A DNA stretch of 64,000 bases from a virus. Its lineage: Duplodnaviria; Caudoviricetes. The number at the start of each line of letters is the position of its first letter. Position 1 is the stretch's first letter. The stretch is taken from the IMG/VR virus record IMGVR_UViG_3300027672_001796; one strand, given 5' to 3'. The notes under the pieces are model-generated. The model had not been told where the DNA came from. It ran no database searches and worked only from the letters and a program-made list of their open reading frames with translations. Positions 1,328 through 43,185 of this stretch are shown here, piece after piece. The translations under genes were made by a program, and so were the position numbers.

Positions 1328-1569
1328 TCCATCCAGTCTTGACTCTTGTCACCGCTCTTCATTTTGTTGTAGCGGTTTAAGGTCTTTATAAGTTCTTCAC
1401 GCTCAGATGGACTCAGGTGCCAACCCTCAGTATACGAAACGGCACCCTCACTAAAAATAGCCAGCTCGGCTACTTGTTTAGAAATTGCTTGACCTTCTTT
1501 CTCGAGTTTACCTAAGTAGGCTGAAATTTCTTCAGGCTCGGCTGACCCTAGGAACCCGTGAAAAAATTT
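1324..1569 (-). CDS. -1 frameshift extension (gp51 / lambda T-like domain) of the tail assembly chaperone
   Basis: 82-codon frame including stop, not in the ORF track: KFFHGFLGSAEPEEISAYLGKLEKEGQAISKQVAELAIFSEGAVSYTEGWHLSPSEREELIKTLNRYNKMKSGDKSQDWMD*. No usable start codon; entered via A-AAT-TTT / T-TTT-TTC at 1569-1560. Confidence 0.8.
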   Translation of the reverse strand, partial: KFFHGFLGSAEPEEISAYLGKLEKEGQAISKQVAELAIFSEGAVSYTEGWHLSPSEREELIKTLNRYNKMKSGDKSQDWMD

Positions 1570-2426
1570 ACAGGATCAAAGTTAATAGTAGAATTAAATG
1601 TGTTATCACATTCTTCATTGCTACATTCAACTTGCACCTCGTTATTAACACCCTTAGCATTAATGCTATTGATAAATGCTTCAATTTCTTTTCCAACGTT
1701 GTTATCAGTATTCTCTAAAAACTCTCTAATAACTTTTTTGTCTTTAATAACAGCATCTTCGCCCTTCTCATCTTGAAAACTAACACTATAAATAGCATCA
1801 ATCAATAACTCGAAGTTTAAGTCTGCTAGTTTAACAAAACTAGTATTAAATGCTTTTAGCCTTTCCATGTCGTCGTCTAATGCAGAAATACTTTGCATAC
1901 TTCTTGTACTTTGGAAACTGGCAACACCTGCCTTAATAGTGTTCTTATAACTAAATGGCATACCTGAAATAACAAGTCCGTTTGCAAGAGTAACTTCGTA
2001 GACATCGTCTAGTTCTTCCATTGTCTGCAAACTTTGTGCAACACTTACAGTTACGTCAGTAGTAGTTTCGCACTTTGGACACTTAGCGGCAACATCAACA
2101 TCATCACCACCACTTGCACCTCTAATTGCAATTAGTAATGCATCTACGTCAGCACTATATAAATCTCTTGCATTTTTAATTTCTGGTACACATGAATGGA
2201 TCAATGAAGCAACTGCCTCACCGTTTAATAAAGCATCTGGATTTTTTAATAACAACTCATCTTTAGTAGTCATTGGATAAATTGCTAATTCTTGGGTACT
2301 ATCATCATTGAATACGACAATACCTTCGTCATAAAATTTACCACCACTAGGGATTTTTGTGAATATCTTTGGTGCTCTGAAGTAGGCACTTAACGGATTC
2401 TGCGTTTTGTTCATATTTTTGCTCAT
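1548..2426 (-). CDS. gp26: T4 gp26-like baseplate hub / tail assembly chaperone
   Basis: NPLSAYFRAPKIFTKIPSGGKFY, IYPMTTKDELLLKNPDALLNG, DVDALLIAIRGAS, CPKC and C-terminal CxxxxC...FDPVNFF; Shine-Dalgarno (SD) CAGGAG upstream. Confidence 0.8.
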   Translation of the reverse strand: MSKNMNKTQNPLSAYFRAPKIFTKIPSGGKFYDEGIVVFNDDSTQELAIYPMTTKDELLLKNPDALLNGEAVASLIHSCVPEIKNARDLYSADVDALLIAIRGASGGDDVDVAAKCPKCETTTDVTVSVAQSLQTMEELDDVYEVTLANGLVISGMPFSYKNTIKAGVASFQSTRSMQSISALDDDMERLKAFNTSFVKLADLNFELLIDAIYSVSFQDEKGEDAVIKDKKVIREFLENTDNNVGKEIEAFINSINAKGVNNEVQVECSNEECDNTFNSTINFDPVNFFTGS

Positions 2427-27640: not shown

Positions 27641-27669
27641 TTGACAAGTCGTTAAATAATTGCTATAAT
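27641..27669 (+). promoter_or_regulatory. sigma70-type promoter
   Basis: TTGACA-17 nt-TATAAT with extended TG; ATG at 27677 lies 7 nt downstream. Confidence 0.85.
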
Positions 27670-28196: not shown

Positions 28197-28258
28197 TTAG
28201 ATAAATACTATATGTAATAATAGCAGATGGCTTTATTACCTTATATAAGGAGACGGAT

Positions 28259-28537
28259 ATGAATAATTTAGTATCTTTTTTCGGTTTAATTCTTTTATCA
28301 AGCATCGTAGGATGTGCCTCAGTTAGTGGCGCCTGGAATGCTGGTACAGAGATTGTCACAGGAACAGTTGACTCTGTTGTGGGCGGAGCCGCCACAATGG
28401 CAGTAGCGATTACTGATGATGTTCGAAACATTGCAGACGTAACTATTGACACAGCACAAGGTGTTGTTAAAACAGTTGCAGAAAATGTTGATAAACAAAC
28501 TGATGAATTACAAAAAGACAAAGAGCCGGGAAAGTAG
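28259..28537 (+). CDS. small lipoprotein (entericidin-like amphipathic), short form
   Basis: Lipobox IVG-C at aa 19; late promoter at 28200-28207; SD AAGGAG; ends in G-GGA-AAG-TAG. Confidence 0.8.
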   Translation: MNNLVSFFGLILLSSIVGCASVSGAWNAGTEIVTGTVDSVVGGAATMAVAITDDVRNIADVTIDTAQGVVKTVAENVDKQTDELQKDKEPGK

Positions 28538-28662
28538 GTAACTTTTCTCTTTTCAGAAAAGAAAAGGAAAAGCAACTCACAGCACAGGAATTAGTCTTAC
28601 TTTTCAAACAGAACCAAGAGAAGTTAGAAAAATACTGTACAACTAACCCAAAGGAATGTTAG
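28528..28662 (+). CDS. -1 frameshift extension of the lipoprotein (long form about 134 aa)
   Basis: GKVGNFSLFRKEKEKQLTAQELVLLFKQNQEKLEKYCTTNPKEC*; no ATG/GTG/TTG in frame; slippery GGGAAAG at 28528-28534 and a hairpin at 28542-28572. Confidence 0.65.
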   Translation, partial: GKVGNFSLFRKEKEKQLTAQELVLLFKQNQEKLEKYCTTNPKEC

Positions 28663-28707
28663 CAATAATCGATAGATAGACGATTAGATGCGATAAATGT
28701 TAGCACT

Positions 28708-28732
28708 AAAGCACTCGCAAGAGTGCTTTTTT
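28708..28732 (+). terminator. intrinsic terminator downstream of the frameshift extension
   Basis: AAAGCACTC-GCAA-GAGTGCTTT plus T run. Confidence 0.9.
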
Positions 28733-28840
28733 GTTTTTTAAACGATAAATACTTGTACATAATAACACAGGGTTTACTTATTACACAACACACCCACACA
28801 TAACTGTCCCACTAAAACACAGTACCCTAAAGGAGAAAAA

Positions 28841-39672: not shown

Positions 39673-39762
39673 GGAGAGTTGGCTGAGTGGTCGAAAGCGC
39701 CTCCCTGCTAAGGAGGTATATGGGTAACTGTATCGAGGGTTCGAATCCCTCACTCTCCGCCA
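39673..39762 (+). tRNA. tRNA-Ser(GCT)
   Basis: Acceptor GGAGAGT/ACTCTCC, anticodon arm CCTCC-CTGCTAA-GGAGG, long variable arm, GGTTCGAATCC, encoded CCA. Confidence 0.97.
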
Positions 39763-39767
39763 CTTAC

Positions 39768-40241
39768 TTAACTAGCTGATGTAATTAAACTAGCCATAAA
39801 GCCTATTATACCACCACATGCTGTTATGCCCACAGCAATAGCACCCATATCAAACCAGAACCTTCTAGACTCTGCCTTGAGCGTTGCCGCCCGCATTCTA
39901 GCTTGTTGGATTGCTCTGCGTTCTTTCATCATATCTTCATAGAACCCAGCTTGTCCTGAATATATTAAAAACTCTCTGAGTTCCTTCTCAAGATTTGCCA
40001 TTTTATGTTTGGCGGCTGTTATTTCTAGTGCCTGTGCTTCTACACTACTGCCACTGAATAACTTTTTAATCATTGGTTGATTTTGACCGTATTGGCTAGC
40101 ACCTATTATCTGATCCTTAGCATCAAAGAACTTACCAAAATATCCAGCAACATCTTCTATTTCTCGACCCGCCGCGACTGCTCGTTGAATGCCCTTGAAG
40201 GCGGCATTTGCCAGGCTAATTGCCCCTGCTATCTCTATCAT
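39768..40241 (-). CDS. hypothetical protein with C-terminal TM segment
   Basis: 157 aa; SD AGGAG; GATAAGTA upstream at 40283-40276. Confidence 0.75.
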   Translation of the reverse strand: MIEIAGAISLANAAFKGIQRAVAAGREIEDVAGYFGKFFDAKDQIIGASQYGQNQPMIKKLFSGSSVEAQALEITAAKHKMANLEKELREFLIYSGQAGFYEDMMKERRAIQQARMRAATLKAESRRFWFDMGAIAVGITACGGIIGFMASLITSAS

Positions 40242-40310
40242 GTGCGTCTCCTACGACCCGTATGACCTACAATAGTACTTATCTAAACCACAAATACCGG
40301 TAAAAAACGG

Positions 40311-40338
40311 TTGACTTACCAGCAAAATACTGTATAAT
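40311..40338 (+). promoter_or_regulatory. sigma70-type early promoter
   Basis: TTGACT-16 nt-TATAAT with an A-rich UP element. Confidence 0.7.
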
Positions 40339-40372
40339 AGTATACATATTAACGCAAAGAGGCAGTAGTTAC

Positions 40373-40651
40373 ATGGCATATTACACTCATACAGCAGATC
40401 CAATAGGCGTTTTCACTGAAAAAGAATACGGAAATTACTTTGAATTTAGTAATAATCCAGATAATTTTGCATTTTGCGAAGACCACCCACATGTTGTATG
40501 GGTAGGATCTCATGGAGTTGGGGGAGATAGCGGACGCCGTTATGCTACTGTTAAGAAGACAGTTGCTTATGTGGTAGTTGGTGAAGACGAGTTTGGACTT
40601 CCTGTTGTTGAGAAGTGGAATATCAAACAGCGTAAAGATTATTTCGTATAA
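40373..40651 (+). CDS. hypothetical early protein
   Basis: 92 aa downstream of the promoter; GAGG SD. Confidence 0.7.
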   Translation: MAYYTHTADPIGVFTEKEYGNYFEFSNNPDNFAFCEDHPHVVWVGSHGVGGDSGRRYATVKKTVAYVVVGEDEFGLPVVEKWNIKQRKDYFV

Positions 40652-40654
40652 CAG

Positions 40655-40820
40655 ACAAGCACATTAACTCTGTGCTAGTAGTAAGTTGTTCCTTCTATGA
40701 TAGAACTTAGGGTAGTTCCTAAGAATTGGAACACGATGACAGTAGTCCGTACACTTGGGTACGATAGTTTGAAGCGGTGGAGAACTGAAGATCTCGGTTC
40801 CGGGAAGCTGTTAAAACACC
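40655..40820 (+). ncRNA. candidate structured RNA upstream of tRNA-Trp
   Basis: Stacked hairpins AGCACA/TGTGCT; three-way junction TGTTCC[TTCTA/TAGAA][CTTAGG/CCTAAG]GGAACA; CGTAC/GTACG; GGTG...CACC enclosing GAGA/TCTC. Confidence 0.4.
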
Positions 40821-40833
40821 AATACTTATTTAT

Positions 40834-40908
40834 GAGTTAGTGGTCTAATGGTAAGATGCAGGTCTCCAAAACCTTGCGATTGGGGTTCGAATCCTTACTA
40901 GCTCGCCA
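40834..40908 (+). tRNA. tRNA-Trp(CCA)
   Basis: Acceptor GAGTTAG/CTAGCTC, anticodon loop CTCCAAA, GGTTCGAATCC, encoded CCA; several G-U pairs. Confidence 0.9.
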
Positions 40909-40929
40909 AATTGAAATAGGATAGATGTA

Positions 40930-41325
40930 ATGACAGATACAGATTATCGTATGATACGCAATGCAATGAGAACCCCAGACGGCACATTATTGCAAAGCCG
41001 ACACCGGCATGATTATGTTACTCACAAGGATAAGAACGGCAACGAGTACATGGTTGATGGTGGATTAAGTTATATTCGTTCCAGTGCTAACGGTGACGAA
41101 GAATTGTTGACCGTTACACTTGCAGATTCTCATGAACAGGTTAGAGAGTCATGTGATTGGGGAACATATGGCATTGCCGGCGATCAACCGCTGTCATATA
41201 TTACTTTGTGTGACATGACCACTGACCACATTGAAGCAGTCATTAAGAATGTGCCGTCAATCAATCCAGCAATTAAAATTGCTATGCAGAACGAGTTGGA
41301 GTATCGCAATGACAATGCCAAATGA
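40930..41325 (+). CDS. hypothetical phage protein
   Basis: IRNAMRTPDGTLLQSRHRHDYVTH...VDGGLSYIR...WGTYG. Confidence 0.75.
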   Translation: MTDTDYRMIRNAMRTPDGTLLQSRHRHDYVTHKDKNGNEYMVDGGLSYIRSSANGDEELLTVTLADSHEQVRESCDWGTYGIAGDQPLSYITLCDMTTDHIEAVIKNVPSINPAIKIAMQNELEYRNDNAK

Positions 41326-41518
41326 AAGGTGTAATGCTGTAAATAACACAAGGCAGTTCCTTGTAGACTTAATGGATCCCAAGAAAACTCCACGAGTACC
41401 GAGTGCTGTACGAAAAGAAGCATATCGTTGCCTAAAGCATTACCCTGGTGAATATCATATGGAAGAGGCGGAAAAACAAGCACCTAAAATATTTGGGGAT
41501 TGGAATAGTGGATTATAA
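41309..41518 (+). CDS. small hypothetical phage protein
   Basis: MTMPNER...FLVDL..PKKTPRVP..VR.EA.RCLKHYP; start moved downstream from the ORF-track call. Confidence 0.7.
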   Translation: MTMPNERCNAVNNTRQFLVDLMDPKKTPRVPSAVRKEAYRCLKHYPGEYHMEEAEKQAPKIFGDWNSGL

Positions 41519-41834
41519 TCCCGACAACTGGGTAATATTAAAGATCAAAGAAGGCAAAGGTACATTCCCCTTCTACAAAGTTCTAGCAGGATGGAGTGGT
41601 GGTTACTTAGATGGTGACAGTTGGCGAATGAACAGTGGTATTACTCTTGTGTTTGATCGTGAAGATGAAATTCATTTTCATGGTGAAAGCGGATCACTCT
41701 ACAGATGCCACAAAGAAGGTTATGGTTTGCGTATGAATAACGCAGGTGTTTATAATCAGTTAATAGAGCAACAACAATTCAAAGGTCAAGTACAAATGAT
41801 GCCAGAAGATACTGATTGGATGAAGTTAGTATGA
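41508..41834 (+). CDS. hypothetical phage protein
   Basis: PDNWVILKI...YKVLAGWSGGYLDGDSWRMNSGI; likely GTG start at 41508. Confidence 0.7.
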   Translation: MDYNPDNWVILKIKEGKGTFPFYKVLAGWSGGYLDGDSWRMNSGITLVFDREDEIHFHGESGSLYRCHKEGYGLRMNNAGVYNQLIEQQQFKGQVQMMPEDTDWMKLV

Positions 41835-42181
41835 TTAGTTATAGCACAAACTGGATGGGTCCAGTAATGAATCGTTGGTACGAAGAACGAGGCATACCTT
41901 TCGAGTTGCGAAAGACTTCTGGTAAGATACTACCAGTAATGGAGTACAAACAATTTCTTGAATCCTATTCATGTGGACGTATTGATATCTATGGACTTGA
42001 TGAAGACGCATATTGGTGTGGTAAATCCGAATATAGTGTTGCTCCTATGCGTACAGAAGATTGGAATGCATTAAGTGAATGGTTATATGGCTTTGAGTCT
42101 AAAGAGCTTGTATCAAAAGACTCTCTCATAGAACAATTTGAAAATGATTATGGTAAAAAGATAAGGTGGTGGAAGAACTAA
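41831..42181 (+). CDS. hypothetical phage protein
   Basis: MISYSTNWMGPV..., coupled by overlap to both neighbours. Confidence 0.65.
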   Translation: MISYSTNWMGPVMNRWYEERGIPFELRKTSGKILPVMEYKQFLESYSCGRIDIYGLDEDAYWCGKSEYSVAPMRTEDWNALSEWLYGFESKELVSKDSLIEQFENDYGKKIRWWKN

Positions 42182-42660
42182 TGAAAATTAAAATAGGAAA
42201 GTATCCGACACATCGTTGGTATCATAACTTTCTATACGAAAAGTTTGGTATTGGTAATGAGCCTAAAGTATCTGTGCATATAGATGACTTCGACACTTGG
42301 AGTATGGATCATACCCTTTCATATATCATTGAGCCAATGCTCAAGCAACTCAAATTAACCAAGCATGGTGCTCCTTATGTGTACCCTGAAGATGTCCCGG
42401 CAGAGTTGCGTCCTACTAAAAAAGAACTAACAGCATACACTAAAAATGGTGAGACTGATAACAAGTTCTTTGAGCGTTGGGATTGGGTAATGGATGAAAT
42501 GATCTTCGCCTTTGAGAGCAAACATAACGATTGGGAAAATCAATTCCAAATTGATGAGATTGTCGCCCTTTGGGATTGGGAAGGACGTACTGCATACCAA
42601 GAACGTATTAGTAACGGCTTTAAACTATTCGGCAAGTACTACGAAAATTTATGGGATTAA
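42181..42660 (+). CDS. hypothetical phage protein
   Basis: VHIDDFDTWSMDHTL..II.PML.QLK..KHGAP...W.W..DEMIFAF...GFKLFGKYY..LWD. Confidence 0.75.
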   Translation: MKIKIGKYPTHRWYHNFLYEKFGIGNEPKVSVHIDDFDTWSMDHTLSYIIEPMLKQLKLTKHGAPYVYPEDVPAELRPTKKELTAYTKNGETDNKFFERWDWVMDEMIFAFESKHNDWENQFQIDEIVALWDWEGRTAYQERISNGFKLFGKYYENLWD

Positions 42661-42661
42661 T

Positions 42662-42742
42662 ATGATAGAAATTTTCGTGTATGCGTTCGGGTGTGTTGTG
42701 TTCATAGTCTGGATCATAATCAAAGGAGAAGAGGACGAGTAG
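42662..42742 (+). CDS. 26-aa single-TM microprotein
   Basis: MIEIFVYAFGCVVFIVWIIIKGEEDE*, starting 1 nt after the previous stop. Confidence 0.4.
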   Translation: MIEIFVYAFGCVVFIVWIIIKGEEDE

Positions 42743-42824
42743 GGTATAAATACATGTGCTGTAATACAAACTATATATCGGTAATGATATATTACACATA
42801 CACATGTATTGCACGGAGATAGAA

Positions 42825-43064
42825 ATGGTAAAAGCAAAAAAAGTTGCAAAAAAAGTCGAGTCAATTAATAAATTCGGTCCGCAAAAAGATTCAAAAGGAC
42901 ACTATTGGTTCGAATACGTTGGTAAAAACGTACAAGCAAATGCAGAACAAATTAGTAAAAACATTAGAAAAAATTCTGAACAAATAGGTAAAAACATAAC
43001 TGCTAACGCTAACTCAGTTGGCGATAGAATGAAAGCATACTTAAATAGAAAAATATCTAAGTAA
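42825..43064 (+). CDS. small basic protein with 11-residue repeats
   Basis: SD GGAG; VGKNVQANAEQ / ISKNIRKNSEQ / IGKNITANANS; late promoter TATAAATA near 42745. Confidence 0.6.
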   Translation: MVKAKKVAKKVESINKFGPQKDSKGHYWFEYVGKNVQANAEQISKNIRKNSEQIGKNITANANSVGDRMKAYLNRKISK

Positions 43065-43077
43065 CAACATATTTACT

Positions 43078-43102
43078 AAGAGCTCATTGTATGGGCTCTT
43101 TT
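43078..43102 (+). terminator. intrinsic terminator
   Basis: AAGAGCTCA-TTGTA-TGGGCTCTT plus TT. Confidence 0.7.
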
Positions 43103-43109
43103 AATTTCT

Positions 43110-43185
43110 GGGGATGTAGCTCAGTTGGGAGAGCGGTTCCCTTGCACGGAACAGGTCGTAGGTTCGATCCCTATCATCTCCACCA
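43110..43185 (+). tRNA. tRNA-Ala(TGC)
   Basis: Acceptor GGGGATG/CATCTCC with G3-U70, anticodon arm GTTCC-CTTGCAC-GGAAC, GGTTCGATCC, encoded CCA. Confidence 0.97.

What the first reader, a model, noticed from the sequence alone, without database searches (positions are those of the whole stretch)
28259..28662. Hidden -1 programmed frameshift (GGGAAAG + hairpin) in a lipoprotein gene, outside the tail-chaperone context
Seen: the 92-aa lipoprotein ends CCG-GGA-AAG-TAG, placing G-GGA-AAG (28528-28534) in the correct phase just before the stop. After a 7-nt spacer there is a 12-bp stem, CTTTTC-T-CTTTTC (28542-28554) pairing with GAAAAG-GAAAAG (28561-28572). The -1 frame runs 42 further codons with no start codon of its own and ends YCTTNPKEC*. 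The terminator (28708) lies beyond this extension. Established: GGGAAAG is the lambda G/GT slippery site, and heptamer + 5-9 nt spacer + stem-loop is the canonical -1 architecture. Inference: two lipoprotein isoforms (92 and about 134 aa) are made at a fixed ratio, the long one carrying a disulfide-capped helix. I know of no such case in a phage envelope lipoprotein.
Basis: partly seen in the sequence, partly recalled or inferred. Interest (0 to 1): 0.8.

Follow-up and report, generated by a model that had tools for sequence, protein, structure and literature searches.

The report
Conserved -1 frameshift in phage lipoprotein
A small lipoprotein gene of an uncultured marine T4-like phage ends in a textbook ribosome slip site kept in every relative examined, so it very probably makes a short protein and a 42-residue-longer one with a small cysteine-looped end domain.

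Summary
The 92-aa lipoprotein ORF (28259-28537) ends CCG GGA AAG TAG. G GGA AAG (28528-28534) is in phase, a bulged 12-bp hairpin (28542-28572) starts 7 nt later, and the -1 frame runs 42 more codons to TAG at 28660-28662.

In this single sequence the signal is only suggestive: 31% of ORF ends in the window have a -1 frame open for 36 codons or more. The comparative evidence is what decides it.
- All 78 metagenome homologues (51-100% identity) whose gene end is on the contig carry an in-phase GGGAAAG or AAAAAAG (CCCAAAA in two) 7 or 10 nt before the stop.
- The heptamer type switched several times on the tree.
- All 76 complete -1 frames are open for 36-61 codons, have no conserved start codon, and encode a conserved peptide ending YCxxNPxEC.
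- pN/pS is 0.4 in the -1 frame, against 0.8 and 1.9 in the other two frames.
- The hairpin covaries and is far more stable than synonymous recodings.
- Metatranscriptome contigs cover the gene plus extension with no indel at the heptamer.

The mechanism is classical. The gene family, a conserved member of a phage curli-like/CHASE2-cyclase envelope island, appears undescribed in the papers searched. No protein-level evidence exists and the function is unknown. This scan has already noted the same family on other DNA.

The parts
28259..28537 (+). 0-frame lipoprotein ORF, 92 aa (short isoform; mature form Cys19-Lys92)
   Evidence: 89 homologues of 92-128 aa in marine metagenomes; ESM Atlas clusters are 100% viral
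28259..28315 (+). Signal peptide ending in the lipobox I-V-G-C (Cys19 codon at 28313-28315), followed by Ala-Ser
   Evidence: read from the sequence; Cys19 is nearly invariant in alignment A1. No signal-peptide predictor was run.
28528..28534 (+). Slippery heptamer G GGA AAG in X XXY YYZ phase
   Evidence: replaced only by A AAA AAG or C CCA AAA in homologues
28535..28537 (+). 0-frame stop TAG directly abutting the heptamer
   Evidence: the stop lies 0 or 1 codon after the heptamer in all loci
28542..28572 (+). Stimulatory hairpin: 12 bp, one bulged U, 6-nt loop, 7 nt after the heptamer
   Evidence: fold; real -12.6 against -3.7 kcal/mol for synonymous recodings, 0.3% as stable; covariation in relatives
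28534..28662 (+). -1 frame extension: 42 codons (VGNFSLFR...YCTTNPKEC) plus TAG. The long isoform is 134 aa, junction ...EPGK|VGNF
28633..28659 (+). YCTTNPKEC: invariant Cys-x6-Cys loop at the C-terminus of the long isoform, end of a confident two-helix mini-domain
   Evidence: C37, P41, E43 and C44 invariant; pLDDT 88-94 over the last 24 residues; the same motif repeated in secreted bacterial proteins
28708..28739 (+). Intrinsic terminator (9-bp stem, GCAA loop, T-run) after the extension
28210..28692 (+). Span covered by metatranscriptome contigs: the gene plus extension as one unit, no indel at the heptamer
   Evidence: X16 28230-28640 and X15 28493-28692 with 0 differences; X17 28210-28651, a variant

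Best explanation
This is a programmed -1 ribosomal frameshift. Most ribosomes decode GGA-AAG and terminate at TAG, giving the 92-aa lipoprotein. A fraction pause over the hairpin 7 nt downstream while tRNA-Gly and tRNA-Lys sit on G GGA AAG, re-pair on GGG AAA, and continue in the -1 frame for 42 codons. The result is a 134-aa isoform with the same lipid-anchored N-terminal part, a charged linker, and a small two-helix domain closed by a Cys-x6-Cys loop. Shown by comparison: the heptamer, hairpin and -1-frame protein are all under selection. Inferred: that slippage occurs, that the two forms are made at a set ratio, and that the extra domain binds a partner in the cell envelope. The gene is a fixed member of the phage's curli-like / FecR / CHASE2-cyclase island.
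For: (1) Heptamer: 80 loci were retrieved through an N-terminal peptide pattern, so selection was blind to the 3' end. All 78 with the gene end present have an in-phase GGGAAAG or AAAAAAG (CCCAAAA in two loci) 7 or 10 nt before the stop, although the 0-frame tail varies (PGK, EGK, AKK, VKK, EKK, PKKD). The heptamer class changed about 8 times on the tree, at least 2-3 times per class on well-supported branches, always to another slippery heptamer. (2) Shift window: in 16 of 55 distinct sequences a -1-frame stop lies immediately 5' of the heptamer. (3) -1 frame: it is open for 36-61 codons in 76 of 76 loci. It has no conserved start codon, and none at all in the window. Codon-position entropy is 0.87/0.58/1.27. 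pN/pS is 0.37-0.42, against 0.8 and 1.9 in the other frames. C, P, E and C are invariant. AlphaFold gives pLDDT above 90 for 24 of 44 residues. The motif recurs as tandem repeats in signal-peptide-bearing bacterial proteins P0099 and P0101. (4) Hairpin: a stem starts mostly 6-7 nt after the heptamer, with mean MFE -10.4 kcal/mol. Synonymous recodings of the same peptide average -4.5, and 34 of 55 sequences fall below the 5% tail. In the covariation test 91% of cells are paired against 60-71% in slid controls, 4 pairs carry compensatory changes, and 0 of 500 shuffles reach the score. Other subfamilies use quite different stem sequences. (5) RNA: metatranscriptome contigs from three runs in two studies span the gene plus extension with genomic sequence at the heptamer.
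Against: There is no protein-level evidence (no junction peptide, no reporter assay). The window's own hairpin is A-U rich, and its single-sequence z-score against dinucleotide shuffles is only -1.84. The hairpin is weak (-6.8 to -8.3 kcal/mol) and not significant in the recoding test for about 20 sequences of the AAAAAAG+10 clade. The RNA data are assembled contigs from RNA libraries: they cannot exclude DNA carry-over or rare slipped transcripts. The host and its tRNA-Lys set are unknown, so efficiency cannot be guessed. The pN/pS alignment was built on the -1 frame peptide, which slightly favours that frame.
Confidence: 0.88

Rival explanations
1. Transcriptional slippage: RNA polymerase adds or drops a base in the A-run, and ordinary translation of the edited mRNA gives the long form.
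For: 35 of 55 distinct sequences have AAAAAAG with six A's. A-runs are known sites of transcriptional realignment (PMC3711429).
Against: 19 of 55 sequences, this window included, have GGGAAAG, whose runs of three are far below the 8-9 A/T reported for realignment. The lineages interchange the two heptamers, which argues for one shared mechanism. A conserved, covarying hairpin 6-7 nt downstream is a ribosomal stimulator, not a polymerase one. RNA contigs show no indel at the site, but they give the consensus only.
Confidence: 0.04
2. Two separate genes: the downstream frame is a small independent ORF, started at a non-canonical codon or by termination-reinitiation. The heptamer is incidental.
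For: Gene callers have sometimes called fragments of it as 29-42-aa proteins (P0093-P0098). An open -1 frame after a stop is common in this genome (31% of ORF ends).
Against: The window's -1 frame has no ATG, GTG or TTG, nor CTG, ATT, ATC or ATA. Where starts occur in relatives they lie 7-33 codons into the frame and at varying positions. Peptide conservation begins right at the heptamer. This model explains neither the strict retention of a slippery heptamer through changes of the 0-frame tail, nor the -1 stop that abuts it in 16 lineages.
Confidence: 0.04
3. No recoding: the region after the stop is an untranslated 3' region. Its hairpin acts in mRNA stability or processing, and the apparent coding signal is a by-product.
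For: The hairpin is conserved in its own right. The short 92-106-aa form is what every database annotates. Distant relatives P0088 and P0089 function with no extension at all.
Against: Third-position variability and pN/pS of 0.4 hold for the distal 30 codons, outside the hairpin. The Cys/Pro/Glu/Cys residues are invariant. The fold prediction is confident. The motif is shared with secreted bacterial repeat proteins. The frame is open in 76 of 76 loci.
Confidence: 0.03
4. Artefact: a sequencing or assembly indel, or a pseudogene of an originally single-frame 134-aa gene.
For: Homopolymer-rich sites are prone to indels.
Against: The same frame arrangement occurs in 76 independent contigs from many studies, and in 14 DNA runs that hold the stretch at 99-100% of words. 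No in-frame fused homologue was found among 89 family proteins, or in 1.84 billion representatives searched with the extension profile. The one apparent fusion (P0097/L088) is homologous only from base 133 of a 1-kb contig and may be chimeric.
Confidence: 0.01

Closest known systems
Phage lambda G/GT tail assembly chaperone frameshift (G GGA AAG)
   Same: Identical heptamer. The -1 shift falls in the last codons of a small phage late gene. It yields a minor C-terminally extended isoform whose extra domain is thought to bind a partner (my own knowledge of the lambda system).
   Different: There is no sequence relationship, and the gene does not lie between tail tube and tape-measure genes. The product is an exported lipoprotein in an envelope/curli-like island. 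Here a covarying hairpin follows the site.
E. coli dnaX tau/gamma and IS3/IS911 orfAB -1 frameshift cassettes (A AAA AAG plus downstream stem-loop)
   Same: Most relatives use A AAA AAG with a hairpin 6-7 nt downstream. The architecture is as described for dnaX in PMC3711429.
   Different: In dnaX the shift truncates the protein, whereas here it extends it. No consistent upstream Shine-Dalgarno-like stimulator was seen, from inspection of the tails and not tested formally. The 0-frame stop abuts the heptamer.
T7 gene 10A/10B capsid frameshift
   Same: A -1 shift near the 3' end of a phage late gene gives a minor isoform about 50 residues longer (my own knowledge).
   Different: T7 10A/10B is a structural capsid protein with a different slippery site; this is an exported lipoprotein.
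Phage curli (type VIII secretion) module of pelagimyophages and Methylophilales phage Melnitz
   Same: The window has csgF, csgG and curlin-repeat genes of the kind reported in PMC7029224 and PMC9004378.
   Different: Those papers mention no lipoprotein, frameshift, FecR or cyclase. tblastn of the lipoprotein finds nothing in 50,697 deposited phage genomes.
CP12 C-terminal disulfide loop (PF02672)
   Same: The helix followed by YCxxNPxxEC resembles the end of the extension. Pfam gives a weak hit at residues 27-42.
   Different: The hit is sub-threshold (E 0.09, 14 bits against a cut-off of 22.7). The Cys spacing is x6 here, whereas from memory it is x8 in CP12. CP12 is cytoplasmic or stromal, and this protein is exported. 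It is a lead only.

Membership tests
Canonical bacterial/phage -1 programmed ribosomal frameshift cassette | X XXY YYZ heptamer in phase with the upstream ORF | tested here: met
   G GGA AAG at 28528-28534; 78 of 78 homologous gene ends
Canonical bacterial/phage -1 programmed ribosomal frameshift cassette | Overlapping -1 frame open downstream, without its own initiation signal | tested here: met
   42 codons with no start codon; open in 76 of 76 loci; -1 stop abuts the heptamer in 16 of 55
Canonical bacterial/phage -1 programmed ribosomal frameshift cassette | Stimulatory RNA structure 5-9 nt downstream, supported by covariation | tested here: met
   Weak in the AAAAAAG+10 clade (-6.8 to -8.3 kcal/mol).
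Canonical bacterial/phage -1 programmed ribosomal frameshift cassette | Purifying selection on the trans-frame peptide | tested here: met
   pN/pS 0.37-0.42 against 0.8 and 1.9; codon-position entropy
Canonical bacterial/phage -1 programmed ribosomal frameshift cassette | Trans-frame protein detected; efficiency dependent on the heptamer and the structure | not testable with these tools
   Needs a reporter assay, western blot or mass spectrometry.
Bacterial lipoprotein (Lgt/LspA substrate) | N-terminal signal peptide ending in a lipobox [LVI][ASTVI][GAS]C | tested here: met
   MNNLVSFFGLILLSSIVG-C19; Cys nearly invariant. By inspection only; no predictor was run and lipidation is untested.
Lambda G/GT-type tail assembly chaperone | Homology to gpG/gpGT and position between tail tube and tape-measure genes | tested here: not met
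   No Pfam or PHROG family. The neighbours are tm66, tm112, a FecR protein, curlins and a CHASE2 cyclase.
CP12 (PF02672) | Score above the Pfam gathering threshold | tested here: not met
   14 bits against 22.7, E 0.09

The most novel reading that the evidence does not exclude
The frameshift may be a tuned stoichiometry device for a phage-built envelope machine. The lipid-anchored short form would oligomerise, and a fixed minority of subunits would carry the disulfide-looped (CP12-like, possibly redox-sensitive) end domain. That domain would dock onto the phage's CsgG/CsgF-type channel, or onto the periplasmic CHASE2 sensor of the adjacent cyclase, coupling envelope state to cAMP signalling late in infection. 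The weaker heptamer GGGAAAG pairs with stronger hairpins (-12.5 against -9.2 kcal/mol), which would fit selection on a set ratio.
Probability: 0.12. Interest if true: 0.8.

Novelty: new member of a known kind. Interest (0 to 1): 0.62.

Why it matters
Conserved -1 frameshifts outside tail chaperones, transposases and dnaX are few. This case is supported by unusually complete comparative evidence: heptamer turnover, a covarying hairpin and a selected trans-frame domain. It also sits in an abundant group of uncultured marine phages. Three things follow.
- It corrects the annotation of a whole gene family, because every database entry lists only the short form.
- It gives a natural series of heptamer and hairpin variants for studying how frameshift efficiency is tuned.
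- It marks this lipoprotein, a fixed neighbour of the phage CHASE2 cyclase and curli-like genes, as a two-form component worth testing when the unexplained function of phage curli modules is studied.

Tried and rejected
- A genome-contig scan for relatives found none, and the window's own assembly is not held. The nearest virus record lacks the locus.
- tblastn against deposited phages gave no match.
- Pfam and PHROGs give no family for the lipoprotein or the extension.
- RNAalifold on the plain MAFFT alignment of 54 sites predicted no pairs, because loop lengths differ. I replaced it with per-sequence folds, a covariance-model alignment and a synonymous-recoding control.
- The first CM alignment (A4) mixed in minus-strand and spurious matches, so I discarded it.
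- AlphaFold of the 92-aa form gave one long low-confidence helix (pLDDT 51), which is not interpretable.
- Foldseek of the extension model against the PDB gave no match.
- P0097, an apparent in-frame fusion of a signal peptide to the extension, looks like a chimeric or recombinant 1-kb contig, so I did not count it.
- The fused 134-aa product was not submitted to the folding or search tools, because it is not a letter-for-letter translation of the DNA.
- The T4 late-promoter consensus TATAAATA is not enriched in the window and is absent upstream of the gene, so I make no promoter claim.

Full report
**Observation.**
- ORF 28259-28537 encodes 92 aa. It begins with a signal peptide and the lipobox IVGC, and it ends CCG GGA AAG TAG.
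- G GGA AAG (28528-28534) is in X XXY YYZ phase.
- Seven nt later, CTTTTC-U-CTTTTC pairs with GAAAAGGAAAAG (28542-28572). This is the MFE fold (-14.2 kcal/mol, z -1.84).
- The -1 frame gives GK-VGNFSLFR...YCTTNPKEC and stops at 28660-28662.
- An intrinsic terminator follows at 28708.

On its own this is suggestive rather than compelling. XXXAAAG heptamers in phase are rare: 2 in 19,884 codons. Against that, 31% of ORF ends in this window have a -1 frame open for 36 codons or more.

**Context.** The window is a marine T4-like phage, carrying a gp20 portal, gp23 capsid, sheath, baseplate and terminase. It holds an island of exported proteins in this order: CsgF, CsgG, two curlin-repeat proteins, a FecR-domain protein, two small membrane proteins (tm66, tm112), the lipoprotein, three large secreted proteins and a CHASE2 adenylate cyclase. 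The order tm66 - tm112 - lipoprotein - (optional genes) - cyclase holds in nearly all related contigs. Phage curli modules have been published (PMC7029224, PMC9004378). Those papers mention no lipoprotein, frameshift or cyclase, and no deposited phage genome has a tblastn match.

**Comparative test.** The family has 89 database proteins of 92-128 aa, all from marine metagenomes, with variable C-terminal tails. I retrieved 80 loci through an N-terminal peptide pattern, so retrieval was blind to the 3' end.
- Every one of the 78 loci whose gene end is on the contig has an in-phase slippery heptamer 7 or 10 nt before the stop. It is GGGAAAG or AAAAAAG, or CCCAAAA in the two most divergent loci.
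- All 76 complete -1 frames are open for 36-61 codons.
- There are 55 distinct sequences.
- The 0-frame tail changes (PGK, EGK, AKK, VKK, EKK, PKKD) while slipperiness is kept. The heptamer class changed about 8 times on the protein tree.
- In 16 of the 55 sequences a -1 stop (cTGA GGG AAA G) directly precedes the heptamer, so the frame can only be entered there.
- No start codon is conserved in the -1 frame, and the window has none at all.

**Coding signal in the -1 frame.** The extension peptides align almost without gaps. The pattern is F/L-S/T-L/F-F, then a charged linker, ELIxLF, and YCxxNPxEC, with C, P, E and C invariant.
- Variability is highest at the third position of -1 frame codons (entropy 0.87/0.58/1.27).
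- pN/pS is 0.37-0.42 in the -1 frame, against 0.8 and 1.9 in the other frames. This also holds for the distal 30 codons beyond the hairpin.
- AlphaFold predicts the last 24 or so residues as two short helices plus a turn, with pLDDT of about 90.
- A profile of the extension, searched against 1.84 billion proteins, found only small ORF calls of the extension itself. It also found two signal-peptide-bearing bacterial proteins with tandem repeats of the same helix-YCxxNPxEC unit. The unit is therefore a real exported-protein module.
- No in-frame fusion with the lipoprotein exists in these searches.

**Hairpin.** In nearly every sequence a stem starts 6-7 nt after the heptamer, with a mean of -10.4 kcal/mol.
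- Recoding the same -1 peptide with synonymous codons gives a mean of -4.5. 34 of 55 real sequences lie in the lowest 5%.
- In a covariance-model alignment of 20 distinct sequences, 91% of cells pair, against 60-71% for slid partners. Four pairs show compensatory changes (C-G/U-A/A-U, G-C/C-G), and no shuffle out of 500 reaches the score.
- Other clades have unrelated stem sequences, such as CCUGUUAUCU/AGAUAAGCAGG and CCUUCUUA/UAAGAAGG.
- The hairpin is weak in part of the AAAAAAG+10 clade.

**RNA.** Metatranscriptome contigs cover 28210-28692 and little of the flanks in the same runs. They carry genomic sequence at the heptamer. This fits one mRNA that holds both frames, and it argues against bulk transcript editing. 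Because these are contigs, rare slipped transcripts and DNA carry-over cannot be excluded.

**Outgroup.** Distant relatives (35-40% identity, P0088 and P0089) sit in another phage context. They end ...ACA AAT AAA TAG with no heptamer, and a separate start-codon-bearing membrane-protein gene follows. The frameshift therefore belongs to the island subfamily and not to the whole superfamily.

**Conclusion.** The best explanation is a conserved -1 programmed ribosomal frameshift (confidence 0.88). It would give a 92-aa and a 134-aa lipoprotein that differ by a linker and a Cys-looped helical mini-domain.
- Rivals are each unlikely at 4% or less: transcriptional slippage, independent translation, an untranslated 3' structure, and artefact.
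- The mechanism is classical, as in lambda G/GT, dnaX, IS3 and T7 10A/10B. What is new is the gene family and its setting.
- The function is unknown. I infer an envelope-anchored assembly in which a fixed fraction of subunits carries a partner-binding end domain.
- Earlier notes of this scan report the same family and the same reading on other genomes. My tests here were run independently of them.

Noticed in passing
L081:2647-3117 (also L082-L087): Distant homologues of the lipoprotein (P0088 and P0089, 35-40% identity) lie in a different phage context (DUF7483, SNase). They have no slippery heptamer and no extension. A run of small membrane-protein genes (58, 66 and 60 aa) follows. This is a natural frameshift-free outgroup.
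   Followed up: partly
P0099, P0101: Signal-peptide-bearing bacterial proteins built of tandem repeats of helix-(Y/F/W)CxxNPxxC. This is the same unit as the end of the extension, and it appears to be an uncharacterised exported disulfide-loop repeat with sub-threshold likeness to the CP12 C-terminus.
   Followed up: partly
55 distinct homologous sites: Loci with GGGAAAG have more stable hairpins than loci with AAAAAAG (mean -12.5 against -9.2 kcal/mol). This may compensate for a less slippery heptamer. It is not corrected for phylogeny.
   Followed up: no
window 27641-27669 (+): A perfect sigma-70 consensus (TTGACA, 17 nt, TG-TATAAT; 12 of 12 matches) lies just upstream of the tm66 gene (27677). 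That is unusual inside a phage late-gene region.
   Followed up: no
window 1548-2426 (-): The T4-baseplate-family gene has in-phase AAATTTT and TTTTTTC 16-19 nt before its stop, and a -1 frame open for 74 codons beyond it. The extension lies antisense to the FG-GAP gene, so it may be chance.
   Followed up: no
L088:1-196: A 1-kb contig encodes a 52-aa ORF that joins an unrelated signal peptide to the last 20 residues of the extension. Homology to the family starts only at base 133, so it is either an assembly chimera or a recombinant.
   Followed up: partly
window 39673-43185: Three phage tRNA genes are present (Ser-GCT, Trp-CCA, Ala-TGC). There is no tRNA-Lys or tRNA-Gly, so slippage would rely on host tRNAs.
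   Followed up: no
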